Shown here: positions 903 through 46,682 of the stretch, in pieces
How the letters are laid out: every line of letters begins with the position of its first letter
How positions within the stretch are numbered: the stretch's first letter is position 1
Assembly: GCA_000002445.1 (NCBI GenBank)
Contig: AE017150.2
Location: 96,001-160,000, forward strand
Direction: 5' to 3'
DNA: 64,000 bases
From: Trypanosoma brucei
Taxonomy: Eukaryota
Position numbers and translations under genes: made by a program
Notes under the pieces: generated by a model
Told to the model about the DNA's origin: nothing
Database searches by the model: none
What the model saw: only the letters and a program-made list of their open reading frames with translations

Positions 903-1150
903 TAGACGAGGTCATGACCACTCCACTGCTGCCGTTACATATGATCACTGCATGGTTTTCGTATCAATGTTGATGATGATATGGGATTTGCTGCTGGAGG
1001 CAACCAACAACATAAGTTTAAGGTTCCCACGTGTGGAGAGAGGCCTAACTGCCAACCCTCAACCAGGATAACAGAAGTGATTATAAGGAAAGAGAAGACA
1101 ACATATCATAGCATGTTTGCACACCGACAAATAATTGAAGAAAGAGAGTA

Positions 1151-1170
1151 AAAGAGAGAGAGAGAGAGAG
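1151..1170. repeat. (GA)n microsatellite (paralogous GA-rich tract at 11771..11802)
   Basis: agagagagagagagagag seen directly. The copy in the second repeat unit is longer and interrupted. Confidence 0.8.
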
Positions 1171-2072
1171 GAAAATGGACACAATCACGTCACCAGCTGC
1201 GTGTCTGCGAAGAACACCATCAAGAGCTGCTCCATAACTGCAACCATAACTAACATGTATAATATAATTATAACAGCTCGTATATGAAACAGCAAATCCA
1301 GTAATTGCTTCTAATGTTTGCATATTTCGCTCCGTCACAATCTCTCTCCCATGACACCTACTGGAAATACAACTCAGAGGAGTTTTAGTTGAGGCATGTT
1401 TCCAATACGCTCTCTCTACCACGGATGGCAAAGAAGCAAAAAGTACTATTACATTTTTGTTCCTTTTATCATTGGCCTATAGATCCCTATCTCTACACTG
1501 ATGGAAAATTTAGATTGTATAAATGAAAAGAAGATGTGAAGAGTTAGCGTAGTATAATTCAATCCTTTAGTTGGTAATAGCACAAATGAAAACAAAACGT
1601 TATAATGTTTTCTTACGTCCGTCGATAACATTATATCTGTCTTTCTTTGTGACCCTTAAGATTACGATGTGGCTTAACTCCAGTTACACGTTAGCCTATA
1701 AAATACTGCACTCCTTCTACTTCCTCCACTACTTTGTCGTCTCGCCACGTTTCCTTGGAACCTTCATTACATTCATACCATGGCGTCCTTGCTGCACCCA
1801 AAAGAAAAAGCAGCCACACCTCCTTGCCCGCTGTGAGGTTACTGAATATACTTCGGACGTCACTGATTATGTGCACCTCTGTGTTACTCTTGTTTTGACT
1901 GCAGTCCGCTGAACTTGGTTTCCTTTCAAACTGCCACACCCCAAGCGCTGCCCACTGCTGAGGAGATTGAACCGCATATATTCACCTCCTTCCACAGCGT
2001 CCGTTGCGTGTCAAACAACAGCGACTGGCCTTACTCCAGCTATTGGGTTCACCTTCGCTTTGCTTTCATCGC

Positions 2073-4586
2073 TCACCTCCCCTGTGCCTTTTCTGCCTTC
2101 TGAAAGGCAATCATCAGCTGTGCATTCATTTCGTCCCTCAACGTTACCTGGAATTGTTCAATCGTTTCCCAAAATGTTTGCAGTTGTTCCGCCTGCCTGG
2201 CAGGGATAACTTCGTCGTCGTTCGCCTCACATTTTTGCCAATTGGTAATTACGGCGCCATCCACTGAGTTTATGTATATCATTTCCCAAGCCATGTTACC
2301 CGAAAACGTGTTCCAGTCGGAAAAATAACTTGCTATGTTTTCTCGGAATTTCTTCACCTTCGCCGTGGTGGTGGGGTGCCTGTCTAACTTGGTTATTTGT
2401 AAAAGGACAATTGTCTTCGGTTTTGGCGCTTTTTTCGCTTGCCTTCCAGGCGACATCGTGAAGCGCCCCTCAACGAAAAAAAAGCCATCCACCACGGGCT
2501 CGTTGGCAGTAGAGGGAGTGTAGAGCACCATGTATTCACACTTCTCAATTGGTTGCTGGCCGGCCGTTGGTAAGAACTCCGATCCAGTGAGGCACAACTG
2601 CTGAGGAGTCATGCTACTCAGTATACTTTGCTTTCCCCTCAGCTTCTCAGGTGGACGGAGGTGTCTCAAGTTCTTTGCCATCACCTCGAGAACTTGAGGA
2701 TTGACTATCGCAAACAACGCATGGCTTTCAAATGAAATGGAAGCGGCACTTCTGTTTCCCATCATGAGCTGGGACTCTGCTGTTTTTCGCGCAGTAATGC
2801 CAAGCAGCGCCCAAAGTAGCAAGATCCTTATGTGTCCGGACAGCTCTTTGCAGCGATATGAATCTCCGGAAACTCCATTTCCACGTGCACGGACTATCTG
2901 TACCAACTTGTGCGACACCTTTTCAGTTTGCCAGTTCACTGATGACCTAAAAAGATCCTCGTAACCACTTTTATCATTAGCATCGAGGCCTCTTATTTTT
3001 TTTGCCATAGCCTCCATTCGCACGCCGTGCCCCACAGCGTCGTAAACGGCACGAGGCACCGGGCCGGCCACTGCAATACGCTGCTTTACAGTTTCCCATT
3101 CGTCCTTTAGTCTTCCTCTTAACTCTTGTTTCGCCGTGTTGGATACCTTTTCACCTAATGCTACTGATAAATTCTTCCATGCCACAAACGCCTTCATGTC
3201 ACGCACATCATCGCAGTTTATAATAATATGGCGGCTTCCCGTGTCCTTTTCCCACTCCTCATAATGTGCCGTATCGGGGGAAGTGAGGACAGTTATACCC
3301 CAATCCAAATGGCGCAGCTCACCAGGCGGTATAAGTAGTTCGTTACCGATGTCAACAATGATGTGACCTCTTTTTTTCTCGAATACTAACGCAGCTATGG
3401 CGTCAACGGCATCTTCCGGGACTTTATACCTCTCAACCCTTCCCTCTTCTCCGGGTTTCTTGTTATATATTAGGTAAGCGATTTTACCCACGAAATACGC
3501 AATGACATTAAACATTCCATCATGGAAGTGAAGCAGTGAATAAAGCAAAAATGATCCAACACCGTATGATTTACCAATACCAGGTGTACCAATAACAATA
3601 TGTCTCGGTGTTATCCGAGCTGTCCTTTCCACCCACCATGTTTGCAGCCCTCGTTGAATTATATACCACACGCGCATAATTTCACGACGGATATACACAT
3701 GTTTATAAATTTCCTCGCACCTCTCAGTGTCACTTGTTTTAAACCTGTTGTATGGCCAACCTTCCTCCGAAGTGAGAACGAAAATCTCCAAACCATCGGG
3801 TCTCTCCTCAATCTCTGCATCAACATTGGTAGGATCAGGAGTTATATCCACCTCCGCTTCGGTCCAAATGCTCTGTGGTCTTCCATCGAACACTTTCATT
3901 CCAAGTGGCTCTCTACGATAACCCGACATTACATAACTCCATTTCGCATTATAAATGGAATCATATAATCCTTTCAGTTCGACAGCACCACCAGCTGCTA
4001 GGACAGCTCGCTTTTCCGCTCTCTTGGCGGCCGCCAACGCTCCATCCAACCTTCCCCTCGCCATGGGACCAACAAATTCTCTTATTTCCACTGTCCCCTT
4101 CTCCTCCCACTGACTGAGGTAGTAAATTTCCTTTTCATCAAGGTACTCTACCTTCTCAGACAGATCAATAGCTGTCTTCACTGTTTTAAACTCATCAGTG
4201 CCTTGTATATCCTCAAGAATCTCAGCATCAACAATATATCTTCTGGGATTCTTAACAAACAAAAACATGGCCACATTCTCTGTGTTATACGTGTTTGAGA
4301 AGTATTGATTCAAAAGGTCATGCAATTTCATATTACGCAGAACCTCATACCGTTGCAGCAGCGCATCTTCCAGCAGCACATTCCTCACCTTACTATCCAT
4401 CGTCCAGTTGGGCCTCTCTTCAGTTCTCTGCCGTATTTGTGGAGGCTGAGCAGCAGCAGCAGCAGCAGCAGCAGGAGGCGGTACATTTTCATCTCGCGGT
4501 CTCCTCATGGGCCCTTCAATATTACCTGCCACTTGTTGGTTTTCATTATTTCCTTGTGGAGCTGCGGGACTATTTGCTCTTGACAT
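2073..4586 (-). CDS. RHS: Retrotransposon hot spot (RHS) protein, apparently full length (837 aa), P-loop NTP-binding motif GTPGIGKS
   Basis: A long ORF shares a conserved N-terminus (MSRANSPAAPQGNNENQQVAG...PPPAAAA..QPPQIRQRTE) and a Walker-A motif VIGTPGIGKSYGVGSFLLYSLLHF with the two other RHS copies in this window. This is the domain organisation of the T. brucei RHS multigene family. No RIME is inserted at the hot-spot codons. Confidence 0.88.
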   Translation of the reverse strand: MSRANSPAAPQGNNENQQVAGNIEGPMRRPRDENVPPPAAAAAAAAQPPQIRQRTEERPNWTMDSKVRNVLLEDALLQRYEVLRNMKLHDLLNQYFSNTYNTENVAMFLFVKNPRRYIVDAEILEDIQGTDEFKTVKTAIDLSEKVEYLDEKEIYYLSQWEEKGTVEIREFVGPMARGRLDGALAAAKRAEKRAVLAAGGAVELKGLYDSIYNAKWSYVMSGYRREPLGMKVFDGRPQSIWTEAEVDITPDPTNVDAEIEERPDGLEIFVLTSEEGWPYNRFKTSDTERCEEIYKHVYIRREIMRVWYIIQRGLQTWWVERTARITPRHIVIGTPGIGKSYGVGSFLLYSLLHFHDGMFNVIAYFVGKIAYLIYNKKPGEEGRVERYKVPEDAVDAIAALVFEKKRGHIIVDIGNELLIPPGELRHLDWGITVLTSPDTAHYEEWEKDTGSRHIIINCDDVRDMKAFVAWKNLSVALGEKVSNTAKQELRGRLKDEWETVKQRIAVAGPVPRAVYDAVGHGVRMEAMAKKIRGLDANDKSGYEDLFRSSVNWQTEKVSHKLVQIVRARGNGVSGDSYRCKELSGHIRILLLWALLGITARKTAESQLMMGNRSAASISFESHALFAIVNPQVLEVMAKNLRHLRPPEKLRGKQSILSSMTPQQLCLTGSEFLPTAGQQPIEKCEYMVLYTPSTANEPVVDGFFFVEGRFTMSPGRQAKKAPKPKTIVLLQITKLDRHPTTTAKVKKFRENIASYFSDWNTFSGNMAWEMIYINSVDGAVITNWQKCEANDDEVIPARQAEQLQTFWETIEQFQVTLRDEMNAQLMIAFQKAEKAQGR
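4451..4474. repeat. (CAG)8 / (GCT)8 trinucleotide repeat encoding the poly-Ala tract of the RHS N-terminus
   Basis: Seen directly. The paralogous tracts are (CAG)5 at 15144..15158 and (CAG)5 at ~48646..48660. Confidence 0.85.
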
Positions 4587-7556
4587 AACTCTCTTAATAT
4601 TATTAACTTAACTTCCTTTCCTTTTCTTTTTTCTCTGAAATTATAAATAACTGAAGTAAAATAATAGATAAGGAAATAATAGTGTGTGAACAGTGTAACA
4701 CAATATCAAATGTGATAGAGCAAGATAATGTTTACTCACTATTGTTTGTATAATATGATATCATAATGCATTTGGTATTGAGAGGAACAATTTCAAAATA
4801 TAGCAGCTGTAAATAAATATTTCCCTTGCTTCATTATCATGTGCTAAATATAATGAACTTCATACATCATTTCTTTAACTATGAATAACATGCAGACAAA
4901 AAATATTACTGCCTCATATACCTGCATAAACACTTCGTATATATAATCAATATTTAAAGAGAGTCAAATTCTATCAATTAAAATCAAGTAAAACAATAAA
5001 CAATAAAAATATATATACGGATATTAATGAAGCGAAGAAAAAGAGTATCGGCACAACACATACATATACACACACATGAATACGCACTACACAATTATAT
5101 ATCCTCCCCATTTTTACAATACGTAACATTTACTTGCATTGAATAAACTCATTGAAAATATAAATCACTTATCCCCTCCCCCGTGTATTCACTTACTTCC
5201 AAAGGAGAATATTAAATAATGTCTGTAGGACAGGTAAAAAAGAAACTGATAGTCTTTTTGCATCAGATAACCAGAGAGTATTTCCGTTTACTTTCATAAT
5301 AAACAAAAACATCATTTTGCCTTCAGTTAAAATAAAATTGAATTACTTGCCTCCTCACTGTTCACAACTATCAACAACTAATTCAGCGACACAAATTCAC
5401 ATGTATTTTATGTGCCTTCGTTGTTTGATTCATTCACACACCTTTTATGATGGTGATTATACAACTTATTGTAAAAAATTGGAATAAAATTAACACAATT
5501 ATTTGAGGAAACCGTAAAAGATTATCATAACATATCTTTTATTTTCCCTCCTTTCATTTACACAGATTAAATATGTAATGATACAATTCCCTTTCAGTAC
5601 GTGTCCACACTTATTGTATCATCATTGTAAGTTTCCTATTGCTCACATACACAAAGTTATTGGAATAACAAAAAATGAAACAACACATCTAAACAACTTG
5701 AAACAATATATAATAAATAAATAAAGGTAATAGAGAGAATGAGCGTGAACAGACAGATAATAAAATGAAACACGTCTCGCATTTTCCTTATAAATATTCA
5801 ATAGTTGGCGGATTACAAAACAATTACACATTATAGAAAGGAAGGGATATAATTACATTATACACCTGCATGTGGATATGTAACAGTGAGTCATAGTAGA
5901 AATAAATTGCCTAAACACAATAGTTATGGAAGATAACATAATTCAAAACATCAATAATATTATTCTATCAACATTCCCTTCCTTCTCCATTAAGTTTCCA
6001 AATGGTTTCAAATAATAATTCACATAATTCCATACATATGTTATGACGGGCATTGCATGCAGTACAATTTAAAGGAAGTGTAACTCATATAACATTTTCA
6101 AAAAAAGGTATTGAATGGTTGTTTGCTACCATCAATTACATTTCCAATGCCTAATTACACTTTTATATGCATGAAGGAAGTTACTGATCATAACTTTGAC
6201 ATACTCGAGAATTCATAACACAAAGCAGCAGCTGCATGCAATAAAAAATAAAAATATAAATAACATCCGAATTCATTTACTGACAGATGAGTGCAATTCA
6301 TTCACCCAAACTTCATAGCTGTAAACATAAACTCGATGCTGCCAATAGGAAAAAATCCCGCATAAATATTGAGTATCTGAAAATGATAGCAACGGGTTTC
6401 CATTTTTGAAATATATGCATAAAATACATGAGGTATATGAAGCCATATTGGTAAAGTGTCACTACGCATGTTGCAATTTACTATCAAAAGTGTCTGCCTT
6501 ATTTTATTTCTTGTGTTAATGTAACTCATGAGTATTATTCATTATTCTTTACAATACAACTGTAAGTCATTTTGCATTTTTTTATATTTTCTTATTCCCT
6601 CATGCTGGAAGTGTTCCACATATGAGATTCCTCAATATCGTTCACACAATAAAAATAATTTCATTTCCTTCTGCATTCAGTTTCTTGTGTAGCAGTGTGT
6701 ACACTAATCATCCATAAAGTTTTTAATTTGCCAAATACATCATTACGAAACTATTTTCCACAAATAAACAAACAAATCATTGGGACAATATCTTTGAGAT
6801 ATTTCCTTCACTATATTTACAGTTCAGTAGTAATTAAAATACACTTTTTGTATAATTCAACACATGGTGGAATTGCAAAGAAATGTGATGGTACTTATAA
6901 TCAATAAGTTCCCAATTTTCCTCACATGGTCTCCTTTCATGCCTTTACATCCATATATAATTCACAGAGAATTACTGCAATTTCTTTCATATGCTTTCAG
7001 GATTCCATATGTCACAATACAAATTATATATATTTACAAATTTGGACATAATATTGCTTAACATATAAATTATCACAAACCTATGATATTACACTCCTCC
7101 TAAGAATAAGAATCAAATTATTTCTATTTTGCATCATTACATGAAGCTTTGGAAAAGGAAAAAAAAGAATCAAACAAAAGGTAATGTAAAGAACACAGTT
7201 TTTTAATACAGGTTAAAACTTGTTTGTGAGTGTCAGATGCGAACACAAAATGTTCAAACAGGAAAACAGTAAAGGACGGTACTGATAATGTAAGCACAAA
7301 TTAACCAAAAATAGAAACATAAATAAAATTTAAAACTTATAAAAACACAAATATATATGATACAAATATTTACCACATATTATAATTCGCCACCCTCACA
7401 CTTGAAATACAAAGAGGACATAACACACATATGTGGTAAAACTAATACAACTCGAATATACATATGTGACATCTTCTTAACATAATCATTCTAATATTTA
7501 CTCAGTATGTGTGTATGTCTGTGTATCTGTGTGTGTAGAAATGATGAAATGTAATT
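4587..7556. repeat. Conserved AT-rich RHS upstream region, copy 1 (paralogous to 15270..~18250 and 48774..~51730)
   Basis: Long near-identical alignment starts immediately upstream of the RHS ATG (aactctcttaatattattaacttaacttcctttcc...). Copy 1 loses homology after ...gaaatgtaat at ~7556. Confidence 0.8.
7508..7545. promoter_or_regulatory. GT-rich tract in the RHS upstream region (paralogous tracts 18222..18241 and 51706..51722); candidate GT-rich promoter element or simply a microsatellite
   Basis: gtgtgtatgtctgtgtatctgtgtgtgtag seen directly. It sits within ~20 bp of the breakpoint where copy 1 diverges from copies 2 and 3. Confidence 0.2.
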
Positions 7557-8738
7557 GTAACAAATCAGGCACAACACAAACAAAAAATATGAATTATATT
7601 ATTCTCTAAAAAGTAGAAGAATAAAAATCAAGAAATATTACGCAACTTTTCTCACAAGTAATTTTGTTTCTGTATATATATATATACATAACACGACAGC
7701 TGACAACATTAAACTCTCAATTCCATAATATCTGACACCTGAAGTGATAATTAGCAGCGGATGCCTCTATCAAAAAACAACAGAAATAACAACATCAAAG
7801 CATGTTTTGAAAGCTTAAATAAACTTCCTCATGGATAAACCATTTGTACAAAGTTTGAGTGCCAAGTAGGAGGAACAAAGAAAAATAAAAAAAGAAGAAT
7901 TAAATGGTAAAAGAATTGCGTGTGATATAACTAAAGGATTTGTTAGGCACTACACTCATTTAACTCCAGTTTCATAAAAATACTGCAAGGCATAATATTT
8001 ACTGCTTTACCGGTTATGTGCCTCCAGCAAGCAATAATAAATACTTCGAGTATTATTCAATTTCTGATGCTATGAAGTGTGTAATAAATTAGTGCGGGAG
8101 TAAAATATTCAAATGTTGGTGTTCAATTCAGATTATAAACTCTGCACTATGAATGTCTCTCGATGTTTATAATTTGAGAGAGCAAAAGTGACGGCGCTAC
8201 TATTTATTTCTTCCAGTTCATGAATACATACACATATATAAATATATTTATACATATATAATCAGATGTGACACGCAAAAGCGTTTAAACATCAGGCATG
8301 AACATCTTTCCATCCATTTAAAGTAAGACTATACAATAAGGTAAGTTTAGGATGAAGTGAAGGTATCATAATGTTAATATCTTCCTTCAAGCGGAGGATT
8401 CAATTCAAATAGGCGTACTTCACAAACAATAGTAAAATAACTGAGAAAACTTATATCACTTAATCGTTATTTCCTTCAATTCTTATTTTGAATCGCTCTG
8501 TACCGTCACACCTTCAATAAAGTATATAGTGACACATTTCACACATCCTCCCTAAGCCATCTCTCATAGTCATTAGCTCTCAACAGCAATAATAACAAAT
8601 AATGAATAGTTTAGTTCTTACCTTCCCTTTTTTACTACCGACAAGAAAGATATACGAAATAATTATCATACTGAATAAACAGTAGGCGTTCCTCATTATC
8701 CTACACAAAATATGAATTGAAACGATAATTTAGTAACG

Positions 8739-8769
8739 AAGCGGAAGTGTCTGAAAGCGTCTTTAACTC
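8739..8769 (+). other. Conserved ~29-nt motif AAGCGGAAGTGTCTGAAAG(C/T)GTC(T/C)TTAAC, copy 1
   Basis: 27 of 29 nt are identical to 40530..40558, and the surrounding sequences are unrelated. A poly(A) tract follows at 9096..9118. Confidence 0.5.
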
Positions 8770-9763
8770 ATCTCCTGTGCGGGGCGAAGAGGGTTGTGTT
8801 GTGTGGACTTTCTAAAAATTTCACTCCCTTGCAGACAGCTGCGTAAATAAACGGGGAGTACAGGTGTGTTTATAAAAAGATAACCGTACAAAATAATACT
8901 CTGCACTCCTAAGTCCAAAACAACCATTCGTAATGCAGGCTTTCAAAATACACGACATCATCTCAACAAATTGTAATTTTTTTTTGTATAATGTCCTCCA
9001 GAAGACGGAACAACAGATGACACAGTTAAATAACACATGACAAACAAGGAATATAACCGCACATCCTCAGCAGTAAATGTTTCAGTTTCTCCTTTAAAAA
9101 AAAAAAAAAAGAAAAATAAAACAGTTTCACACGTGTGGTCCAAAAGCTGCATCAGCCAATACAATATCTTGACAGCTTGTCACGCAGTATTGCCTCAAGA
9201 AGAAAATAAAACATTCATCTCTGCTTTCCGTTAATTGATAAATGAGATCCCATGCTGTGTTAACTCCCGTCTCCATTCAAATAGTTGACTCAACGTTATG
9301 ACGAGGCAGTGACCAAAAACAATCCAAATGCAATTCTAAATTTCTTCATATTACGTTTTCAGTTTTATTACACATTTCCCCAACCATTCCGAGTACTAAC
9401 AGGAATAATTTGGTTCTATAATAATGCATGTGTTTTCTACAACCCTTTCATTTTGTTATGATCCGCACAAAAATTATATATGTGGTTGTTGATTCGTCCT
9501 GTCAATCAAAGTAATATAATAATTAATTTTCCCCTTTTCTTCATTTTTTCTATTAGCACATGTGCACCTTGGTGAGATCACTTTCACTCATTTGCACTGA
9601 TTGGTCAACACTATTTAGTTCGTTATTCAACACACTCCCTTACATGTCCTCTTCTCACCATTTATAACCCACACGAGCAGCATCAAATATAAATTGTGAA
9701 GAGGTATGAGATCACAAGGAGCTCGCTCTCATTGAGAAGGTTGGATGCGTCATATATATATAA

Positions 9764-11533
9764 TCATGTAATCCCTTTCCATTTCAACAATACGCAAACC
9801 TCAACTGCGGAATCGACTTTGAATGAGTTGACCTCGTCAGCATGAAACGGGGCCCGCCAAGTGGCATGAACATTAATCTTATCAGTAAACATGTGTTTGA
9901 GGTGTTGGTAATAAATGGGGTCAAATAAAACATAAGTGCGTATCATCTCCCCCGTTATGCCCGAGTGGAAAATATACATCATCTCCTTGAATATAATTGT
10001 ATCCATGTTGTATCAATTCCTCATTCAGCTCTTCATCCTTATCGGTACCCAAAGGCATTGCCATCGCCTAACTTTTCCGTGAATGCACTCACGCCTTTAA
10101 GCTAACGAGTTCCAGCAACTTTCCATCTGTCATACGGCTCGGGAATCCATGAGAATTTATGATCATATCTGTGCAAATGCCTTTACTCATTGAAGGGCAT
10201 GTTAACACACCATCAGTGATGAGATCCACTACTCCCTCCAGCCCGTGCCGTGAGGAAAACTTATTTCAGACCTCGGGACCGCGAACTTCTCTCGTAGCAA
10301 CTTTAACTTTATTGTTATACATTCATCGATATATCCGAGTCACTGGAAGGTGAGAGATGACCACATTTGGTTCACAACAGCAGGCTGAGGGTATTTATTA
10401 TATTCAAGAAAATTAGGTCTTGGTTTCATGGAAGGCACGGGAGTGTATTTGTTTACAAAAATATCAAACTGACAAACAGCCGCACCTTTACTACTGGCAA
10501 TACCATCACTACTAAAGGCATTGTGTCTCGCAACATTTCAATCTGTTGGAAGAATTATATCATACATACTCACCGTTGGGAAGTCTTTCCAGTTCCATCT
10601 CATGCTTACAAAAAACAACACGCCACCCATAGCCACAATTGAGCGAACTGCGGTTGTGTACACCTTTGAGTCTTCAATATTGTAACCTCTATAGCTCATA
10701 ATGCATACCATCGTATTAATTCCTGCGCCTAATATTTTGTAGTTGCTTAGGTTCATAGCCTTCGTCCAGCAAAGGGATCGTTGAGAGTAAGCACTCAACA
10801 TAAGTACTGTGCCCATTTCTAATGTACTGAATATACGCAATGGTTCCAACAGCTTGCTTGCCCATGGCTGACTGTAATGTGTTTCGTGCAAATTGATTGT
10901 GATGTGTAAAGGAGAATAATGCTAGCGGCAACTCCAAGTGAGTCTCGTGTACTGCTCAATGTCTCTATGGTGAACTGCTAAAAGACAGACATTCGCTTCG
11001 TCATATAAGTCAATGAATTCCACAACAAACCTTCAGCTAAAATATCGTTAATCGAGCACTTGCCTGAACTCAAGTTATCCAGGTGTTGAGAAATTACAGC
11101 GTGTTTCCCATCGCGAACAAAAACATACAACCTCACGATCCTTCTGCCAACACAAACAATTTGAACACTCTTCTGACGGTCATTTATCGCAATTGAAACG
11201 TAAGGATGCAAGCGGCCTGTGTTCCTCAGGGTTCGTAATACATCCCGACACAAACGGCTCATGTATCGATAAACGCACATCAGCACTTCATTGAGGAAAA
11301 CTGTGTAGTATTTAAGAAATTCGTTAAGGCTGATATAATCTATTTCCTCCACTCCAATATTGTACGCATCCGCATGTAAACAAATTATCCATGTCGAGTG
11401 TTACCTGACTAAGAATAGCAAAATTATTAACCAAACAGCAACAACTTTCACCCTCTGGGGTATCGCAAAGAGGGATATACACCATTCCCCATTGACTTGA
11501 ATAGAGACATAATGATCCGCACATGTGGGTCAA
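9764..11533 (-). pseudogene. Unidentified degenerate pseudogene immediately downstream (3') of RHS #2; a related copy sits at 1..902
   Basis: A chain of minus-strand ORF pieces (9764..10006, 10538..10891, 10716..10937, 10978..11352, 11324..11533) in alternating frames. They include hydrophobic segments (AVRSIVAMGGVLFFVSMRW). The same pieces recur downstream of RHS #1. Confidence 0.3.
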
Positions 11534-12731
11534 TAGACGAGGCCATGGTCACTCCACTGCTGCCGTTACATATGATCACTGCATGATTTTCGTATCAATG
11601 TTGATGATGATGTGGGATTTGCTGCTGGAGGCAACCAACAACACAAGTTTAAGGTTCCCACGTGTGGAGAGAGGCCCAACTGCCAACCCTCAACCAGGAT
11701 AACAGAAGTGATTATAAGGAAAGAGAAGACAACATATCATAGCATGTTTGCACACCGACAAATAATTGAAGAAAGAAAGAGAGGGAGAGAGAGAGAGAGA
11801 GGAAAATGGACACAATCACGTCACCAGCTGCGTGTCTGCGAAGAACACCATCAAGAGCTACTCCATAACTCTAATCATAACTAACATGTATAATATAATT
11901 ATAACAGCTCGTATATAAAACAGCACATCCAGTAACTGCTTCTAATGTTTGCATATTTCACTCCGTCACAATCTCTCTCCCATGACACCTACTGGAAATA
12001 CAACTCAGAGGGGCTATATTTGAGGCATGTTTCCAATACGCTCTCTCCACCACGGATGGCAAAGAAGCAAAAAGTACTATTACATTTTTGTTCCTTTTAT
12101 CATTGGCCTATAGATCCCTATCTCTACACGGATGGAAAATTTAGACTGTATAAATGAAAAGAAGATGTGAAGAGTTAGTGTAGTATAATCCAATCCTATA
12201 GTTTGTAATAGCACAAATGAAAACAAAACGTCACAATGTTTTCTTACGTCCGTCGATAACATTATTTCTGTCTTTCTCTGTGCCCCTTAAGATTACGATG
12301 TGGCTTAACTCCAGTTACGCGGTAGCCGATAAAATACTACTTTTACTATTCCTTAGTCGTCTTCATTTCCACTTCCCTTCCCTCACCTCCGGCACTCAAG
12401 TGAATTACCACGTCCCTTTCCTGCACTAACCGCCGCATTCGACTGCTTGTTGAAAAGAATAAGATGATTACTACAGCCGCTATTTGCTGAATATTACTCC
12501 CTTGCAGCGCATCTTGTCATCCTAAGCATTAAGACAAAGCCACTTACCCTGTTTTGGCAGTTAGGACTGCTGGCCTCCCTATGATACGATAACTCAATTT
12601 TACATTAAATGAAAAAACGCCGACTAGCCCCACATTAGCACCGTACACTGTTGACTGCTTGCGTTCACCATAACATACCAGGCCGGATATTTTTACCCAG
12701 CTTCCACCACACCTAATGCTATGAAATCGTC

Positions 12732-15269
12732 TCACCCTCCTTGCGCTCCCGCTTGCTCGTTGCGTGGCTGCGGCGCAGGCTCCATGGCCAGAAGTGGAGC
12801 ATCCCGATACCAACATTCATCTCTATATGCTCGCATTAGCTGCCCCTGCATTTCTTCCCTTAACGTTACTTGGTATTGAGCCATGTTTCTCCACATATCT
12901 GCCGCTTCGGCGGGGTCGTCGCCATCACAAAGTTGCCTGATGGTTATCGTGCCACCGTTAACCGAATTAATGTATATCATCTCCCAAACCATGTCGCGGG
13001 AAAACGCACCCCAATCAGAAAAATATCTTGCCATGTTTTCTCGGAACTTCTGCACCTTATCCGTAGTGGTGGGGTGCCTGTCCGACTTGGTTACTTGTAA
13101 AAGCACAGCTATATTTGGAGTGGTCGGTGGCGCTGCTCCGTCAGGGGCTCTCCTGAGCCGCCCCTCAACGAAAAAAAAGCCATCCACCACGGGTTCATTG
13201 CCTGTGGCAGGGCGGTAGAGAACCATGTATTCACAATTATCAATTGGTCGCTGGTGGGCCGCAGGTAAGGCCTTCTGCCCAGTGAGTTTCAACTGCTGAG
13301 GAGCCATGTCGTTCAGTATGCTTCGACGGTCAGCTATTTCTCCGCCTCGTCGCAGGTATTTCAAGTTGTCTGCGATAACTTTAAAAACTCGAGGAAAAAG
13401 AAGCGAAAGCAACGCCCTTGATTCAAACACGTTGGCTGCGGCACTCTCGTCTGACATCGTAACTTGACGGATAGCCATTTTCTCCACATCAATGGCAAGC
13501 AGTTTGAAAAATATAGCATTCCCAATGCAAACCGAAAGTGGCCGGCAGCGGTATTCATCGACGCTCTCTCCGGCATCTCGCACACGGACGATTTTCACTA
13601 ACCTGTGCGTTACCTTATCATTTCGCCAATCGGCAATTTTCCCCATTATGTCCTCGTAGTGACTTTTGTTGTCACCATTGATGGACGTTATCATCTTTTT
13701 TGCCTGAGACACACGTTTTGTGTACCCCGCGCTGTTGTAAACGCAACGAGGCACTGGCCCAACCACATTAATACGGCTCTTTATTGTTTCCCACTCATTT
13801 TTAAGTTCTTCTACAATCCTCGCCTGAGCTTCTTCATCAAGTGCCGCATAGCCTGATGCTACAGACAGCTTAGTCCATGCCACAAATGCCTTCATGTCAC
13901 GCACATCATCACAGTTTATAATAATTCCTACGTCTCTCTTGTCTTTTGACCAGTGATGAAAATGGGCCTCATCCGGAGAAGTGAGGAGAGTTACACCCCA
14001 AGCGTGAACCGGCAGACCATCGGGTGGCGTCTGCGCATTCTTGCATATGTCAACAATGATGTGCCCTTTTTTTTTCTTGAATACTAACGCAGCTATGACC
14101 CTAACAGCAGCTTTCACGTCTTCATATTGCTCAACCTTCCCCCCTTCTCCGGGTTTCTTGTTATATATTAAATAGGCTATTTTACCCACGAAATATGCAA
14201 CAACATCAAGCATTCCATCATTGAAGTGAAGCAATGAATGAAGCAAAAATGATCCAACACCATATGATTTACCAATACCAGGTGTACCAATAACAATATG
14301 TCTCGGTGTTATCTCAGCTTTTTCCACCCACCTTCCTTGCAGCCCTCGTTGGATTATATACCACACGCGCATAATTTCACGACGGATATATACATGCTTA
14401 AAATTTTCCAAGCATATCTCAGCGTCATCCAATGCAAACCCGTTGTATGGCCAACCCTTCTCCGAAGTGAGAACAAAAATCTCCAAACCATCAGGCCTCT
14501 CCTCAATCTCTGCATCAACATTCGCAGGGTCAGGAGTTATATCCACCTCCGCTTCGGTCCATATGCACTGTGGTTTTCCATCAAACACTTTCATGCCAAG
14601 TGGCTCTTCATTATAACCCGACATTACATAACTCCATTTCGCATTATATATGGATTCATACACTCCTTCAAGTTCGACAGCACCACCAGCTGTTTGGGCA
14701 GCTCGCTTTTCCGCTCTCTTGGCGACCTCCAGTGCTCCATCCAACCTTCCCCTCGCCATGGGACCAACAAATTCTCTTATTTCCCCTCTTCCCTTCTCCT
14801 CCCACTGACTGAGGTAGTAAATTTCTTTTTCGTCAAGGTACCTTGCTTTCCGCTTCATTTCAGAGAATTGGTTATATAATTCTTTATATTCCTCAAACTG
14901 ATAAAGCCGCCGTATCCTTCCTAGAATCCCGGCATCCAAAATATAATCCTCCGGGCTCTGGACAAACACATCCATGGCCACATTCTCTGTGTCATACGTG
15001 TTAAAAAACTTTTTCAGCAAAAAGTCATGCAGTGTCATATCCCTCAAACCCTCATAGCGTTGCAGCAATACATCTTCAATAGAACTGTTCATTGTCCAAT
15101 TGGGCCCCTCTTCAGTTCTCTGCCGTATTTGTGGAGGCTGAGCAGCAGCAGCAGCAGGAGGCGGTACATTTTCATCCCGTGGCCTCCTCATGGCTGCTTC
15201 AATATTATCTGCCACTTGTTGATTTTCATTATTTCCTTGTGGAGCTGCGGGACTATTTGCTCTTGACAT
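12732..15269 (-). CDS. RHS: Retrotransposon hot spot (RHS) protein, apparently full length (845 aa), P-loop GTPGIGKS
   Basis: Long ORF collinear with RHS #1, with identical N- and C-terminal blocks and a mosaic-divergent central region. There is no RIME at the hot spot. Confidence 0.88.
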   Translation of the reverse strand: MSRANSPAAPQGNNENQQVADNIEAAMRRPRDENVPPPAAAAAQPPQIRQRTEEGPNWTMNSSIEDVLLQRYEGLRDMTLHDFLLKKFFNTYDTENVAMDVFVQSPEDYILDAGILGRIRRLYQFEEYKELYNQFSEMKRKARYLDEKEIYYLSQWEEKGRGEIREFVGPMARGRLDGALEVAKRAEKRAAQTAGGAVELEGVYESIYNAKWSYVMSGYNEEPLGMKVFDGKPQCIWTEAEVDITPDPANVDAEIEERPDGLEIFVLTSEKGWPYNGFALDDAEICLENFKHVYIRREIMRVWYIIQRGLQGRWVEKAEITPRHIVIGTPGIGKSYGVGSFLLHSLLHFNDGMLDVVAYFVGKIAYLIYNKKPGEGGKVEQYEDVKAAVRVIAALVFKKKKGHIIVDICKNAQTPPDGLPVHAWGVTLLTSPDEAHFHHWSKDKRDVGIIINCDDVRDMKAFVAWTKLSVASGYAALDEEAQARIVEELKNEWETIKSRINVVGPVPRCVYNSAGYTKRVSQAKKMITSINGDNKSHYEDIMGKIADWRNDKVTHRLVKIVRVRDAGESVDEYRCRPLSVCIGNAIFFKLLAIDVEKMAIRQVTMSDESAAANVFESRALLSLLFPRVFKVIADNLKYLRRGGEIADRRSILNDMAPQQLKLTGQKALPAAHQRPIDNCEYMVLYRPATGNEPVVDGFFFVEGRLRRAPDGAAPPTTPNIAVLLQVTKSDRHPTTTDKVQKFRENMARYFSDWGAFSRDMVWEMIYINSVNGGTITIRQLCDGDDPAEAADMWRNMAQYQVTLREEMQGQLMRAYRDECWYRDAPLLAMEPAPQPRNEQAGAQGG

Positions 15270-38057: not shown

Positions 38058-40529
38058 GATGGACCCTTCGGCATGATCAAGAGAGATAGAGGATACGCAG
38101 CTTTCATGCTGGACGGAAGCATGCCAAGCATTAGTCATTTTTTCTGCTACGCGTTTAATGAAAGTGTGCATTTATCTGAGTTGTCTGTGAATTGGGGAAG
38201 CGCTCTGACCAGTTCGTTTAATGAGCAAACTCCCATGGCTGAGTGTTGAACACACCTCATTGCGATGTCGGAATCCGGTGTATCTGCGAGAGGCGGGGAG
38301 ATTAAATGTTCGCGCGCATCCCGTCTTAAGAATTGCGGCAGTCGGACAGTAACGGACTGCCCGGGGGAGAAGGAAAAGCGGCGAAACCGTCGGTTTTCGG
38401 GATGGTGGGAAGCATCGGTGTGATCCTCCACGTGTATAAACATGATTCTTTCGGTATCTTTAGAGCGCTCTCAATGTTGAGATCTGTGGTGTTAAGCAGA
38501 ATACAGGTCTGATCTCAGGTGAGTCGCAGCGGAATTCTGGTGAACTCTCCCGGCCGAAAAGGACCACCTAAGCAAATAACTGCGCGAGAAAAGGGTAAAT
38601 GCCACATTTTTCACGAAACGTTATCATCAGAGGCGGAGGCGGAATCCACAGTGATGACTCGGTGTTGGAAGATTGATATGGCACGGCCCCTTAAGGGTCC
38701 ATAAGCGTGGAGATTGGCAATGGATGGGATCGGTGTGTCGAAAGGCTCACAAAAAAACAAACGAGCGAGTACTAAATACGATAGGTTGATCATATTGTCA
38801 CACTGGAGCTGCTAATTGCATCTGTATCGGCGTTTTTACACAAACGAAAACAATAACAAAGGAGGAATCGGGCATACGGTGGCCGACGTAACGTTTCAAA
38901 ACAGCCGGACACGGGATCCAACTACAACATCTGTCAACGGAAGATGATGCGCTGTGCAATGGCCCACGCAGTATATGATGGAAATAACCGGTACGAGGAA
39001 TGACGCGAGAACGTCCCATGTGTAACTGGTTTTCACCTCAAGTCATGGTCATCTACAGGTTATGTGGAATAGATGAAAATAATGGGGAATTGTGAAAGAC
39101 AAGGTTTGACAAGAGTTTTTCGCTGTCATCGTCATTATTCTTCGGAAAGTCAGCGTATGGGTTGTTATTATGGCGGCGCGAACTAAACCAGTCCGACGAC
39201 GGTCACTGCATTTTCCTCCCTCGCGACTACTGATATTTTCTCCGCTTTGTCCTTTTCCAAACATTTTTAATTCGTGAAGGTCTCACCATCTTTCCACTTC
39301 TTCCGGTAAAACTCTCTGCACCTGCTTTTCTATCCACACTCGCTGCGGTTTTCCACTTCAGAGTGTGGCCAGTAGCCTTCTCAGCTCGTCTTGCCATTTG
39401 TTTGGCTGTGCTCGCGCCTTCCGGCATTCTGTTAAAAGCTGCGTCTTCCTTCTGTTCCCGATGTCAACGACTGCTGTCCTTTTTACCTTTGCAGAATTCG
39501 CACGCTCTCAAGAATTTCCTGACATTTTGCACCTCTTCCCAGTTCTCTCGCCCACATCGTGGTCATTCCTATACCTGCGCTACGATAGCGTGACGGTTTT
39601 TACCATAGGCCTCGTCACCGAATCTAGCGCCGGTGTTTCCCGCGCCTGTGAACTTTCGCCCATGGTGTCCACGGCAAGTCGTTTCGCAACGATCCTTATT
39701 CCGCTGCATTTACAAGTTGCCGTTGGCTCTCTTTCCCACTTGGCGTCATGACAACAATGGCTGCGTTCGGCTTTGGCATATGGCTTGTGTACAGCATCTC
39801 TTTTTTCGCTTATTTATTTCGTGTGTCGAGGGAATGCTGCCGTTGGCATTGACGTTCCTGAACTCAGCAAGCTCCTGCGATCACTCACTTTCGTGAGTTC
39901 CATCAGCCGCAACTGTTGTGCTCTCGAGTTTGGCGTCGTGCTTTCGCTCGCTTAGCGTCTAGTTAAATGCCATCGCCATGGGCGTCTCCTGAGCAACAAG
40001 ACGTTTCTTCATACAAGCAACATTAGACTTACATTGTTGTGTCGTATGTGACGGAGGAAGACGCAGCTACGGTTTCAGGGTGGTGAGCTCCGTCCGTTTG
40101 TTTTTATCATCGGTGACAAATTCGATTACGCAGTTGTTTTACCCTTCTGTAACTTTCCCTTCCCCAGTTTCAACTGTACAGGTTTTCCTGAAAGTCATTC
40201 CCGTCTGACAAGTTGGTTTGTTTTTTCCTCCCTTTACCGCTTCCAACAAACAGAACGCCGTCCGCGACACAACTACACCTCTTTTCCCCTTTCCTTCCCC
40301 ACCAAAGAACATCGTTGAAAGTTCGATACTTTCAAAGCAACTTTAGCGTAAGAAGTTTTTTGGCGGCGATGCCTGAGAATAGTCAAGTCTCACTTCCCTA
40401 TAATATAGCAATAGAAAAAATATAACATAATTATAAAGAGTGCCTTCGTACAAACGAGTTTTACTGAAATATAAGTCACATCGTAAACGAAATTTATTGA
40501 TACTTATCTAACCGCCTCTATTACTTACA

Positions 40530-40558
40530 AAGCGGAAGTGTCTGAAAGTGTCCTTAAC
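40530..40558 (+). other. Conserved ~29-nt motif, copy 2 (see 8739..8769)
   Basis: aagcggaagtgtctgaaagtgtccttaac; 27 of 29 nt identical to copy 1. Confidence 0.5.
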
Positions 40559-43500: not shown

Positions 43501-46166
43501 AGTTGTACTGCGATGCTTCACTTTACCATATGTGTAACATCGTGTCTCGTTGGTTTGTAAAAATTCAAAAAGAACACATCAGGTGATATTCTTCTGTTCT
43601 TACTTCGTACATTCACATCTCTTCCCGTCAGTTCGGAAACTCCCACTCAAACTCACCACTCTGTGAAGATTTGTAATTTCCGTTATGGATGGACGTACTC
43701 AAGTGGACATGTTTGGCACTTCAAAACTAAGTTTTTTAAACTTACACCTTCCTTCTTTCATAGAGCTTCAGTGCGAGAGTAAAAGAATAGTTGAGTATTA
43801 TGAGAAAACATAAGCCCAAATATTCTCGATGCAAGTTTTCAATAAAAGCAAACGCATTGAGATGGTTTAGTGAACACATGCAGTATAATCCCTAGCAAAG
43901 GTATTATTCACACCCAATAAACAACTCAAACAAATAACACCAGCATACATATCGCAGACACATAAGTTGCACCTTCACAAACAAATGATGACTGCTGTGA
44001 CTCATCATGTGTAAAATATTATGAGAACAAAAACATAAATGTCCTTGATCTTCCATAAATGTATAGCACAATATTATTTTGCATTATCATCGGAAAAATA
44101 TTTTTTTTATATTGATATATATATTCAGCTAAAAGTCAAGAGTGAGCTCTGGCCTTGTAGAACTGTAAATGCGTGCATGTTCTGTTATTATTGTTTCCCA
44201 TTGTAAAATGAAGATACGTGCAGGTGTGGAGAAACGACTCCATTAATGCTTATGATGCACCAAATAATTCTCTCGTAAAGAAAGGAGAGAACAAATGCTC
44301 AGTACATGCGTCCCTATTTGTATCTTTAAATTAAGGTTCTCTTGAGTGGAGTAAAAGAAGAAAAGGCAAGAAGTATATGATGTGAGTGATAATACATAAT
44401 GAAATGACCCAACAAGAGGGAAAGGAAGTTACATGCCTTCACTACAGTCATACAAATAAAGCCAGACCCTTTACACTCGTTTCACAGTGTTCTGTCGCAT
44501 CGCTCTGTATAAACAAATTACTAATAGGAAATGGAAATGTAAGAAGAGAGTAAAAAAGTATCAAGTAGCTTGAGGATTATCGACACTCAGCTACGTGGAA
44601 TGATACGCATCGCAAATTTGTGTTTGAAATGATCACCATCCTAATGAACTTACTCGTATGTTACTTAATCCTGGGAAATACTTCTCTGTGCGCTCAAGTT
44701 ACCTGACAACTTTCCTTCCACACCCTATGCATTGTTACCACCTCCATTGTTAACTCCGTTGTTCCTGTCATATTCCTCAAGTTTTTCTTTGCATTCGACG
44801 TATAGTGCAATAATGCGCTCATTAAGTGAGACGGAAAATTGACGCACTTCCCTTTTCCAAAATCTTTCCTCACGTTTGCTTTGTTCATCCGTGGCTGTCC
44901 TGCTACAACACTGTGGCTTTGTAATTCTTTCGTCGTCAACCCTTTGAACATATATTATTTCCCATACCATATCATTAGAAAAATTGTCCCAGCGTCTAAA
45001 GTAACTTTGCAAACACCTTTTCATCTTAAATAACCCACCGGTGCTGCAGGGATGACTACCAGAAATTGTGTACTGCAGTCCCACAAAAGTCTTCGGGTTC
45101 TCAACAAAAAAGAACGCATCAACAACTGGGAAACTCCTTGATTGCGGCTTGTACAATTTCATGTATTCAATTTCAGCTCCAGCTACAATTGGAACATCCT
45201 CAGGAACCTCAATCGAAGGACCAATGAGTCTTGGTTCTTGCAGCACCTGCAGCACACTTCGTGGAATTTGATCCTCAGAAAGTGAGAGGCCCTGTAACTC
45301 CCTTGCCAACTCAATTAGTGCATCCTCATGTGACAATGCTTCAATGCCACTGTTCTCAAACATGTAGGCAGCGAGGGCGCGGTTAGACAACATGCCAGAA
45401 ATTAAAGCATATTTTTTTGTCCGCCAAGGTCTCAGAAAGTCTAAAATAGCTTGTCCCGTGTAAGATGAAAGCGGTCTGCAGCGATACGCATCACAAAGGG
45501 GGTCACCATCAACCACACGGACAGCCCTCACTAACTTGTGTGATACCTCATCTGTTTGCCACATACCTGCGTTTTGGAAAATTTTAGCGTAATCATTCAT
45601 ATCATCATCTCTCATTTTGCCAATGACCTCTCGAATTAGTTCCCGCTGCCTTTTATACCAAAATGAATCAACGATATGACGAAGCAGTGGACCAACGATA
45701 CGAATGCGGGCTTGAATTTCTTGCCATTCTCTTTCAATTTTCTCCTTCGCATCTGAAGGACTCCAACCGTAAGCAAGAGCAATTTTCCCCCACCTCGATA
45801 TGTGTATGGCTTCCAAATCCTTCAATGTGTCACAGTTTATGTAAATATGTGTAGCGCCGTTTTGCTTGGACCATTCATGGAATTGTCTAACGTTTGGAGA
45901 ACTCAAAGCAATACCGGAAAAATCACCAGGTGGTTTCACTGGAGCATGATGGTCCTTGTCCACGTCGAATATAAGGTATCCCTTAATATCCTCACCGCCA
46001 CTCGATTCTCCGATTATTTGCTTAACAGCTGTGAATGCACTCTTATAATTACTGTAAAACGTAACATATCCTGCTCGATCGCCTTTGGGTTTACGAAACA
46101 CGTACGCCTCGCCCTCCACAACGTATATGATAATCTGAAGCTGACTCGCTTCATAATGCAGTAGTT

Positions 46167-46178
46167 TGTATAACAGTA
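46167..46178. repeat. 12-bp target-site duplication TGTATAACAGTA (minus strand TACTGTTATACA), copy 1 of 4
   Basis: The identical 12-mer occurs at 46167..46178, 46683..46694, 47203..47214 and 47717..47728, immediately flanking each RIME. Confidence 0.85.
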
Positions 46179-46682
46179 TTTTTTTTTTTTTAGAATTTTC
46201 TTCGTGCCTTCGTGAGAGTTTCTCCCAACTGGCGCGGCCATCAGCCATCACCGTAGAGCCCCGAGATGCTATCGGTCTGGCGACTGTGGCAGAGTCTCCC
46301 TTTTTCATTCATCCTAACACACTCTCTATAATTTTTGTTGTATTTCCGCATATGAACGGAATACAGCAGATGGGGCGAGAACCCTCCCACCCTGGACTCT
46401 CCCAAAGATGCCAATTTGCAATCCTTTTTTGGAGGTCCACATCACCGGACAGCAGCATCTTAGCGCGGATGATACTGCTGATGGCACGCTGGCACGTGCC
46501 CAGGGACCGACAAATGAAAAACGGTGTCCCAGCAAGACGCTGCTGATCCCTGTGCTGTATGATGCCGTAGCCGGAGCACAGCAGTGTTCCCCATGAAAGG
46601 AACGCTGCTGGCTCTTGGCTTCCCCCGATGATACGGGGTACTGGACCCTGGCACAACATTGAGGTGGCCGGCATCGCCAGGG
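46179..46682 (-). mobile_element. RIME (non-autonomous ingi-related retroposon), copy a, with a 13-nt poly(A) tail
   Basis: The minus strand reads CCCTGGCGATGCCGGCCACCTCAATGTTGTGCCAGGGTCCAGTACCCCGTATCATCGGGGGAAGCCAAGAGCCAG... ending in poly(A). This matches the canonical RIME/ingi 5' end, the length is ~504 bp, and the copy is flanked by the 12-bp direct repeat. Confidence 0.85.

What the first reader, a model, noticed from the sequence alone, without database searches (positions are those of the whole stretch)
8739..8769. A 29-nt motif shared by two otherwise unrelated loci (8739 and 40530)
AAGCGGAAGTGTCTGAAAGCGTCTTTAAC at 8739 and AAGCGGAAGTGTCTGAAAGTGTCCTTAAC at 40530 share 27 of 29 nt, while their flanks are unrelated. 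A chance match of this quality within 64 kb is expected at well below 1e-3. Both lie in non-coding sequence outside the large duplicons. The first is ~330 nt upstream of a poly(A) tract (9096..9118). The motif could be the conserved end of an uncharacterised short repeat family, a retroposon remnant, or a cis-element such as an RNA-processing or protein-binding site.
Basis: seen in the sequence. Interest (0 to 1): 0.55.

Follow-up and report, generated by a model that had tools for sequence, protein, structure and literature searches.

The report
Shared tail of dead VIPER retrotransposons
The 29-base match is real, but it is simply the stop codon and first bases of the tail of VIPER, a known extinct retrotransposon of Trypanosoma brucei, surviving in two differently truncated relics downstream of RHS genes, so it is an ordinary repeat remnant and not a new regulatory motif.

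Summary
In detail: 8739-8767 and 40530-40558 match at 27/29 with unrelated flanks, and no shuffle reproduces this. The window is T. brucei TREU927 chromosome 2, in the RHS cluster. Each copy lies about 4 kb downstream of a minus-strand RHS gene.

Related loci from T. b. gambiense and T. equiperdum supply a bridge. There a 4.4-kb element has the order: 5' block, gag-like ORF with a CCHC box, tyrosine recombinase, RT/RNase H, motif, 3' block. Its proteins match published T. cruzi and T. theileri VIPER sequences.

Read on the minus strand, motif bases 3-5 (TAA) are the VIPER pol stop codon. The rest is the start of the 3' terminal repeat.

- **Copy 2** ends a degenerate VIPER (about 40521-44356) that is cut off 35 nt after the stop codon.
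- **Copy 1** sits in a 348-nt unit (8597-8944) made of the VIPER 5' block, 41 nt and the VIPER 3' block. This is the architecture of T. cruzi SIRE.

Within each type the motif changes at the same rate as its flanks, so nothing suggests a present function. The nearby poly(A) tract is unrelated. This is a remnant of a known transposon family. The SIRE-like unit and the defined TbVIPER ends are minor additions. Interest is low.

The parts
8739..8767 (-). Motif copy 1. On the minus strand it reads GT-TAA-AGACGCTTTCAGACACTTCCGCTT: the pol-frame stop codon (8763-8765) followed by the start of the VIPER 3' terminal ('B') repeat.
   Evidence: (minus-strand ORF ends at 8763)
40530..40558 (-). Motif copy 2. 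The stop codon (40554-40556) of the decayed VIPER RT/RNase H ORF (...RGAREAG*), followed by the first bases of the 3' terminal repeat.
8597..8944 (-). SIRE-like short VIPER derivative, 348 nt. It consists of the VIPER 5' block (8809-8944), a 41-nt junction (8768-8808) and the VIPER 3' block (8597-8767, which includes the motif).
   Evidence: Both blocks are found in gambiense VIPER copies, separated there by 4.1 kb of gag-YR-RT/RH: L002 12850-12981 (86%) and 17093-17265 (82%); L006 11877-12005 and 16126-16288. The architecture matches the SIRE description in PMC6681497.
40521..44356 (-). Degenerate VIPER copy, truncated at its 3' end 35 nt after the pol stop codon. The 5' limit is uncertain and there is no recognisable 5' block. 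RT remnants lie at about 41110-41936 (a weaker hit reaches 42153), RNase H remnants at about 40627-41137, and the N-part of the YR ORF at about 42807-43142.
   Evidence: tblastn with T. theileri VIPER RT/RH P0143, E 6.6e-37. C-terminal matches. Colinear with the gambiense VIPER at 58-60% nt identity.
40400..40520 (.). Sequence replacing the remainder of the VIPER 3' block at copy 2. It marks the tail-to-tail junction with the plus-strand unit (GRESAG4 pseudogene, LRRP, RHS fragment 37553-38047). GC skew changes sign here.
12732..15269 (-). RHS4-type gene (XP_951486). Motif copy 1 lies 3965 nt downstream of its stop codon.
44725..46308 (-). RHS1-type C-terminal ORF, part of the pseudogene 44725-48773. 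Motif copy 2 lies 4167 nt downstream. In all RHS1-type loci examined, the VIPER relic directly follows the RHS1 3' flank.

Best explanation
The motif is a piece of VIPER, the tyrosine-recombinase (DIRS-order) retrotransposon of trypanosomes, which is extinct in T. brucei. The element lies on the minus strand. Read on that strand, the motif begins GT-TAA. The TAA is the stop codon of the RT/RNase H (pol) ORF, and the following ~35 nt are the first bases of the element's 3' terminal repeat (the 'B' split direct repeat).

The two window copies belong to two different relics:
(a) 40521-~44356 is a long, heavily decayed VIPER. Its 3' repeat is cut off 35 nt after the stop codon, at a rearrangement junction.
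(b) 8597-8944 is a 348-nt unit consisting only of the VIPER 5' block, a 41-nt junction and the VIPER 3' block. This is the same build as SIRE, the short VIPER derivative of T. cruzi.

Relic (a) lost everything distal to the motif, and relic (b) lacks everything proximal to it. The only sequence the two still share is this ~38-nt tract, which is why it looks like an isolated motif with unrelated flanks.

Shown here: the homology, the ORF order, the position of the stop codon, and flank-rate decay of the motif.
Inferred: that the tract was a cis-acting part of the terminal repeat while the element was active, and that it has no function now.
For: - **Identity of the window.** T. brucei TREU927 chromosome 2, RHS cluster.
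- **Bridge loci.** In T. b. gambiense L002 and L006 the left flank of copy 1 (82-86% identical) and the right flank of copy 2 (colinear, 58-60%) are contiguous around one motif copy.
- **gag-like ORF.** The 4.4-kb bridge element has a gag-like ORF with the box CFTCGRFGHYSNTC, i.e. CX2CX4HX4C.
- **Tyrosine recombinase.** The YR domain matches the published T. cruzi VIPER YR at BLASTP 1e-14.
- **RT/RNase H.** 44% identical, E 1e-110, to T. theileri P0143. P0143 is the 484-aa ORF3 of VIPER copy NBCO01000028 in Ribeiro et al. 2019.
- **Stop codon.** The T. theileri protein aligns to its last residue (...WGERGAG) with ...GGEREVG* in L002. All seven copies carry the TAA at the same place in the motif.
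- **Window copy 2.** Its neighbour has RT/RH remnants, P0143 E 6.6e-37.
- **Sizes.** They fit published VIPER and SIRE figures: element 4416 nt against 4480; 5' block 136 nt against A repeats of 136-173; SIRE = 5' 185 bp + ~30 bp + 3' 220 bp.
- **No present constraint.** Motif against flank identity is 28/29 at 96.5%, 26/29 at 91.3% and 21/29 at 83.3%. In each case 73-97% of 29-nt windows do as well or better.
- **Nothing else found.** No Rfam hit and no conserved fold.
Against: - No single copy shows the full published repeat pattern A1...B1-A2-B2. The gambiense long copies lack A2-B2.
- The 348-nt unit could be a plain genomic deletion of a long copy, not a SIRE-type element. All three copies of it seen so far are segmental duplicates of one locus.
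- No nucleotide similarity to T. cruzi or T. theileri VIPER ends could be checked. 10-11-mers of the motif are absent from the sequences in the paper's supplements.
- Pfam alone does not recognise the decayed ORFs in the window.
- The motif is far better conserved between the two window types (37/38 in reconstructed ancestors) than the VIPER interior is between long copies (41% divergence). Neutral decay of old insertions does not explain this by itself.
Confidence: 0.85

Rival explanations
1. Plain mosaic spacer. The motif is merely the overlap left by two independent genomic rearrangements (a 4.1-kb deletion at 8768-8808 and a flank replacement at 40520) in paralogous RHS-downstream spacers. 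The 348-nt unit is a deletion product, not a SIRE-type element, and the tract never had a cis-acting role.
For: All type I copies are segmental duplicates of one locus. The area is a patchwork of short homology blocks. The motif evolves at the flank rate. The 41-nt junction has no identifiable source.
Against: This reading is compatible with the VIPER origin of the sequence but leaves two things unexplained. First, the deletion leaves exactly the two terminal blocks, with a ~30-40-nt junction, as in T. cruzi SIRE. Second, the tract plus the pol C-terminus is conserved far above the element interior.
Confidence: 0.25
2. A host cis-element, such as a protein-binding site or an RNA-processing or trans-splicing signal, kept by selection at both loci.
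For: Both copies lie at similar distances (3.9-4.2 kb) downstream of RHS genes. The motif contains two tandem 10-mers, GGAAGTGTCT/GAAAGCGTCT. At copy 2 a polypyrimidine tract and an AG follow on the + strand.
Against: The motif is not conserved above its flanks in any within-type comparison. The two gambiense long copies differ at 7 of 28 motif positions although they are 95% identical overall. There is no common predicted structure and no Rfam family. The polypyrimidine tract is simply the reverse strand of the Gly/Arg/Glu-rich pol C-terminus.
Confidence: 0.05
3. A preferred breakage or recombination site. The tract itself attracts rearrangement, which explains why two junctions lie within about 40 nt of each other.
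For: The deletion junction lies at the motif's right edge and the replacement junction 9 nt from its left edge. Divergence within the motif is locally raised between L002 and L006b.
Against: Only two events are known. Breakpoints at the edge of a transposon terminal repeat are expected without any hot spot. The surrounding 800 nt contains several other block boundaries.
Confidence: 0.08
4. Remnant of a poly(A) retroposon of the ingi clade (RIME, SIDER or DIRE) on the + strand, ending at the poly(A) tract 9096-9118.
For: An A-rich tract lies about 330 nt downstream on the + strand. The setting is an RHS cluster, known for ingi/RIME insertions.
Against: - The poly(A) tract lies outside every block shared with other loci.
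- No domain typical of the ingi clade (AP endonuclease or LINE-type RT) was found. The only RT/RH homology is to VIPER, on the opposite strand.
- The published ingi4 and ingi6 target signatures do not fit.
- The candidate 12-nt flanking duplications I checked by eye reach only 7/12, below the 65% used.
- There is no HDV-like/Pr77 hit in Rfam.
Confidence: 0.02

Closest known systems
VIPER (vestigial interposed retroelement), the tyrosine-recombinase retrotransposon of trypanosomatids; TbVIPER in T. brucei (Vazquez 2000; Lorenzi 2006; Ribeiro 2019, PMC6681497)
   Same: It has the same ORF order, gag-like (CCHC box), YR, RT/RNase H, and about the same length (4.4 kb against 4.48 kb). The proteins are homologous to published T. 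cruzi and T. theileri VIPER YR and RT/RH. There is no poly(A) tail and no target duplication. All T. brucei copies are degenerate, as published.
   Different: For T. brucei the literature reports an apparent lack of conserved terminal repeats. Here a 5' block (136 nt) and a 3' block (about 180-195 nt, starting at the pol stop codon) can be defined. The full A1...B1-A2-B2 pattern is not seen in any one copy.
[quoted passage not shown]
   Same: The unit at 8597-8944 consists of the VIPER 5' block, a short private junction (41 nt against ~30 bp) and the VIPER 3' block. This is the published SIRE architecture.
   Different: It is 348 nt against about 430 nt. It is known here from one locus and its segmental duplicates, not from hundreds of dispersed copies. 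No nucleotide similarity to T. cruzi SIRE was tested. In the papers I read, SIRE is described only for T. cruzi.
RIME/ingi and SIDER/DIRE (short/long pairs of poly(A) retroposons in trypanosomatids)
   Same: The same logic applies: a short form is the long form minus its interior. The setting in RHS clusters is also shared.
   Different: A different class. There is no 76-79-nt 5' signature, no poly(A) tail, no 12-bp target duplication and no AP endonuclease. The RT/RH is of the VIPER type and the element has a tyrosine recombinase.

Membership tests
VIPER (YR retrotransposon) | Gag-like first ORF, in trypanosomes with a CH-box (CX2CX4HX4C) | tested here: met
   L002 13796-14266 and L006 12823-13290 encode ...CFTCGRFGHYSNTC... 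Pfam zf-CCHC gives E 0.003, below its cut-off, but the exact spacing is present. It is not detectable in the window's own decayed copy.
VIPER (YR retrotransposon) | Tyrosine recombinase ORF between gag and RT | tested here: met
   L002 14939-15358 against the T. cruzi VIPER YR (supplement of PMC6681497): BLASTP E 1e-14, with motifs ITASRW.EIA, PKT.K.D.HRA and KH..PQ aligned. The PDB search alone was inconclusive (P2 integrase, E about 1). In the window copy, only the N-part of this ORF is detectable (43142-42807).
VIPER (YR retrotransposon) | RT/RNase H ORF homologous to VIPER pol | tested here: met
   The stitched L006 RT/RH hits T. theileri P0143 and P0144 at E 1e-110 and 1e-101, with Pfam RVT_1, RVT_3 and RT_RNaseH_2. 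P0143 is the 484-aa ORF3 of VIPER copy NBCO01000028. Window 40627-41936 matches P0143 at E 6.6e-37.
VIPER (YR retrotransposon) | Split direct repeats: A1 at the 5' end; B1, A2, B2 at the 3' end | tested here: inconclusive
   The long copies have one 5' block and one 3' block directly after pol. The two blocks occur side by side in the 348-nt unit. No copy holds all four repeats.
VIPER (YR retrotransposon) | No poly(A) tail and no target-site duplication | tested here: met
   No A-tail belongs to the element. The A-run after the 5' block is part of the RHS1 flank, which is shared with a copy that lacks that block. I saw no convincing duplication by inspection.
SIRE-type short derivative | VIPER 5' portion + short private junction + VIPER 3' portion, without ORFs | tested here: met
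   8809-8944, 8768-8808 and 8597-8767, compared with L002 and L006 and the published definition.
SIRE-type short derivative | Dispersed at independent genomic sites (mobilised copies) | tested here: not met
   The three copies found (window, gambiense chromosome 10, T. equiperdum) share the same 4.9-kb context at 95-96% identity. Only about 170 kb outside the window was sampled, so this is a weak negative.
ingi-clade poly(A) retroposons (RIME, SIDER, DIRE) | 76-79-nt 5' signature, poly(A) tail, 12-bp target duplication, ingi4/ingi6 upstream pattern | tested here: not met
   No Rfam or HDV-like hit. The poly(A) tract 9096-9118 lies outside the shared blocks. The published target patterns do not fit. 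The signature sequence itself was not available for a direct alignment.

The most novel reading that the evidence does not exclude
The ~38-nt tract at the junction between the pol stop codon and the 3' repeat is the conserved cis-acting site of VIPER elements, for example where the recombinase or the reverse transcriptase engages the terminal repeat. T. brucei once also had a mobilisable SIRE-like non-autonomous partner. The argument is that the tract and the pol C-terminus stay nearly identical (37/38) between VIPER lineages whose interiors differ by about 41%.
Probability: 0.2. Interest if true: 0.4.

Novelty: new member of a known kind. Interest (0 to 1): 0.17.

Why it matters
The main value is to remove a false lead. 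This is not a new regulatory motif or a new repeat family. It is debris of VIPER, a retrotransposon family already known to be extinct in T. brucei.

Two small points may interest transposon specialists:
- The 5' and 3' terminal blocks of TbVIPER can be delimited. The literature speaks of an apparent lack of conserved terminal repeats in this species.
- T. brucei carries at least one unit built like T. cruzi SIRE.

If the conserved tract at the pol stop codon proved to be the cis-acting site of VIPER-like elements, it would give a handle on how these poorly understood tyrosine-recombinase retrotransposons replicate.

Tried and rejected
- **Chance match.** Rejected by shuffles.
- **Structured RNA, tRNA or snoRNA.** No Rfam hit at gathering or E<=1, no tRNA, and folds neither stable nor shared.
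- **Literature search for the sequence string.** Only unrelated primers.
- **Exact-protein look-ups for TREU927 genes.** These failed, so the source chromosome could not be walked. Gambiense and T. equiperdum loci were used instead.
- **Metagenome scan for the motif.** 0 hits.
- **Pfam on six-frame translations.** For 40400-44400 (all six frames) and for the three sense-strand frames of the L002 interior, nothing passed a curated cut-off; only a weak zf-CCHC hit appeared. The retroelement was recognised only by reading the RNase H motif in the raw translation and then by homology search.
- **My first working explanation.** I read the motif as the neutral overlap of two rearranged RHS spacers with no transposon identity. 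It was superseded once the 4.1-kb block proved to be VIPER.
- **RHS loci without the motif.** L003, L004 and L008 have no copy, so the motif is not a general feature of RHS genes.
- **ingi-type retroposon.** Rejected; see the membership tests.
- **Inverted or templated origin of the 41-nt junction.** No source found.
- **Possible RHS1 coding remnant at 9286-9366.** 72% over 82 nt, not confirmed at protein level.

Full report
**1. Observation.** The 29-mer AAGCGGAAGTGTCTGAAAGCGTCTTTAAC is at 8739-8767. A 27/29 match is at 40530-40558, on the same strand. No other match with up to 3 mismatches exists on either strand, and none appeared in 100 dinucleotide-preserving shuffles. The similarity extends 9 nt to the left (8730-8767 against 40521-40558). 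Beyond that, the flanks of the two window copies are not significantly alike.

**2. Setting.** The window carries RHS genes (2073-4586, 12732-15269 and a pseudogene at 44725-48773, all on the minus strand). It also has an ESAG8-like LRR protein (29379-32711, +) and fragments of a receptor-type adenylate cyclase. The 845-aa RHS is 100% identical to XP_951486 of T. brucei brucei TREU927, on the 1,193,948-bp chromosome 2.

Self-comparison shows 1-7518 matching 10636-18235, and 14552-30525 matching 48057-64000. One duplicon starts at window base 1 and the other ends at base 64000. 'Outside the duplicons' is therefore an effect of the window edges. Each motif copy lies about 4 kb downstream of a minus-strand RHS gene and antisense to it (3965 nt and 4167 nt).

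**3. Related loci.** Exact-protein look-ups failed for TREU927 but worked for T. b. gambiense DAL972 and T. equiperdum. About 170 kb of RHS-rich sequence yielded five more copies. They fall into three types.

- **Type I** (window 8739; gambiense chromosome 10, L001/L006; T. equiperdum L007). All three lie in the same 4.9-kb spacer at 95-96% identity.
- **Type II** (window 40530; T. equiperdum L005). 91.5% identical over 11.5 kb, including both flanks.
- **Type III** (gambiense chromosome 2, L002; chromosome 10, L006 16125-16152). This is the bridge. Its distal flank is homologous to the left flank of type I (82-83%). Its proximal 4.1 kb is colinear with the right flank of type II (58-60% nt). 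At the far end of that 4.1 kb lies a 136-nt block that in type I sits only 41 nt from the motif (8809-8944; 84-86%).

Three other RHS loci have no copy.

**4. What the 4.1 kb is.** Pfam on six-frame translations showed nothing above cut-off. The raw translation of L002, however, showed a CX2CX4HX4C box (CFTCGRFGHYSNTC) and an RNase H-like TDAS..GWG...E..A...DN pattern.

A homology search with the stitched RT/RH region hit two T. theileri proteins (E 1e-110 and 1e-101, 44% identity). These carry RVT_1, RVT_3 and RT_RNaseH_2 domains. One of them, P0143 (484 aa), is the ORF3 of the VIPER copy NBCO01000028 analysed by Ribeiro et al. 2019. Its sequence is printed in that paper's supplement.

The region between gag and RT matches the published T. 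cruzi VIPER tyrosine recombinase (BLASTP E 1e-14; tblastn 8e-10). Type III is therefore a near full-length but degenerate TbVIPER of 4416 nt, against 4480 bp for T. cruzi VIPER.

The same proteins detect RT and RNase H remnants on the minus strand of the window at 40627-41936 (E 6.6e-37) and part of the YR ORF at 42807-43142. The literature says that VIPER occurs in T. brucei only as degenerate copies: 36-58 hits in TREU927, all analysed copies 'degenerated'.

**5. Where the motif sits.** The T. theileri pol aligns to its very last residue (...NLRWGERGAG) with ...NLRGGEREVG* in L002. Type II reads ...RGAREAG*. In all seven copies the stop codon is the TAA at bases 3-5 of the motif read on the minus strand (window 8763-8765 and 40554-40556). 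The motif is thus the pol stop codon plus the first bases of the 3' terminal region. The pyrimidine tract that follows the motif on the + strand at copy 2 is the reverse strand of the Gly/Arg/Glu-rich pol C-terminus.

**6. Why the flanks differ.** VIPER elements carry split direct repeats: A1 at the 5' end and B1, A2, B2 at the 3' end. T. cruzi SIRE consists of the VIPER 5' 185 bp, about 30 private bp and the VIPER 3' 220 bp, corresponding to the region spanning the A2 and B2 repeats.

The unit at 8597-8944 has this build: 5' block of 136 nt, 41-nt junction, 3' block of about 180 nt starting with the motif. At 40530 the long copy keeps pol, but its 3' block stops 35 nt after the stop codon. 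There it meets unrelated sequence at the tail-to-tail junction with the plus-strand unit, where GC skew changes sign. The only sequence common to the two relics is therefore the ~38-nt tract.

**7. Is it functional now?** In the three within-type comparisons the motif changes like its surroundings:
- 28/29 where flanks are 96.5% identical;
- 26/29 where flanks are 91.3%;
- 21/29 where flanks are 83.3%.

In each case 73-97% of 29-nt windows do as well or better. The two gambiense long copies differ at 7 of 28 motif positions although they are 95% identical overall. There is no Rfam family and no shared or unusually stable fold. A present host function is unlikely.

**8. An unexplained point.** Parsimony with L005 and L007 makes the ancestors of types I and II identical at 37 of 38 positions. 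Yet the interiors of type II and type III VIPERs differ by about 41%. The last pol codons and the motif form an island of conservation.

This could mean the tract was constrained while the elements were active, as a cis-acting part of the terminal repeat. It could also mean a short conversion patch, or that the short unit derives from a lineage close to type II. The data here cannot separate these possibilities.

**9. The poly(A) tract and the retroposon idea.** The tract at 9096-9118 lies outside all blocks shared with other loci. On the minus strand it is a T-run downstream of an RPB2-like pseudogene. No ingi-type feature is present.

**10. Verdict.** The match is real and has a clear, ordinary explanation. 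It is the pol-stop/3'-repeat junction of the known retrotransposon VIPER, preserved in a SIRE-like short unit and in a truncated long relic. The interest is low. The delimitation of the TbVIPER ends and the SIRE-like unit in T. brucei are minor new details.

Noticed in passing
window 9860-11300 (minus strand): A decayed pseudogene of an RNA polymerase second-largest subunit (Rpb2 domains 4 and 6, with several frameshifts) lies downstream of the RHS4-type gene. It runs across the apparent duplicon boundary at 10636. The same fragments are annotated in gambiense chromosome 10.
   Followed up: partly
window 46167-47728: Three tandem copies of a 516-520-nt segment (97-99% identical) inside the RHS1-type pseudogene. 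They repeat the junction between the N-terminal and P-loop domains.
   Followed up: no
window 37553-38047 (+ strand): An isolated fragment of an RHS N-terminal domain (33% aa identity to the intact RHS genes), pointing towards the minus-strand RHS1 unit. The region around 40.5 kb is therefore a convergent junction.
   Followed up: partly
window 1 and 64000: Both large duplicons end exactly at window edges: 1-1707 matches 10636-12338, and 14552-30525 matches 48057-64000. The true units are about 10.6 kb and 33.5 kb tandem repeats. Further motif copies are predicted about 1.9 kb left of the window and near +74 kb.
   Followed up: no
window 24134-25398 and 57650-58910: Two adjacent ORFs with the periplasmic-binding-like domain of receptor adenylate cyclases (GRESAG4-type), split by a frameshift. 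Probably a pseudogene. It is duplicated in the 33.5-kb unit.
   Followed up: no
window 26600-26680 and 60117-60147: (GT)n microsatellites of different length in the two copies of the 33.5-kb unit.
   Followed up: no
window 9286-9366: An 82-nt stretch, 72% identical to RHS1 coding sequence (45664-45741; also L006 10497-10574). Possibly the last trace of an RHS1 gene that once preceded the short VIPER unit. Not confirmed at protein level.
   Followed up: partly
L003 7733-9386 (T. equiperdum QSBY01000017): Another VIPER fragment (YR N-part and the start of RT) lying roughly 0.6 kb upstream of an RHS gene. VIPER relics seem to be common in RHS clusters.
   Followed up: no
L006 18807-20600 (gambiense chromosome 10, minus strand): An annotated 597-aa ORF with faint RNase H and C2H2 zinc-finger hits. 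It is probably an ingi/DIRE remnant, lying 2.5 kb beyond the long VIPER copy.
   Followed up: no
window 40554-40600, L002 17060-17103, L005 16195-16215: The last ~25 nt of the VIPER pol ORF and the motif are much better conserved between divergent VIPER copies (about 80-100%) than the rest of the element (about 59%). The cause is unknown: past cis-acting constraint or a conversion patch.
   Followed up: partly
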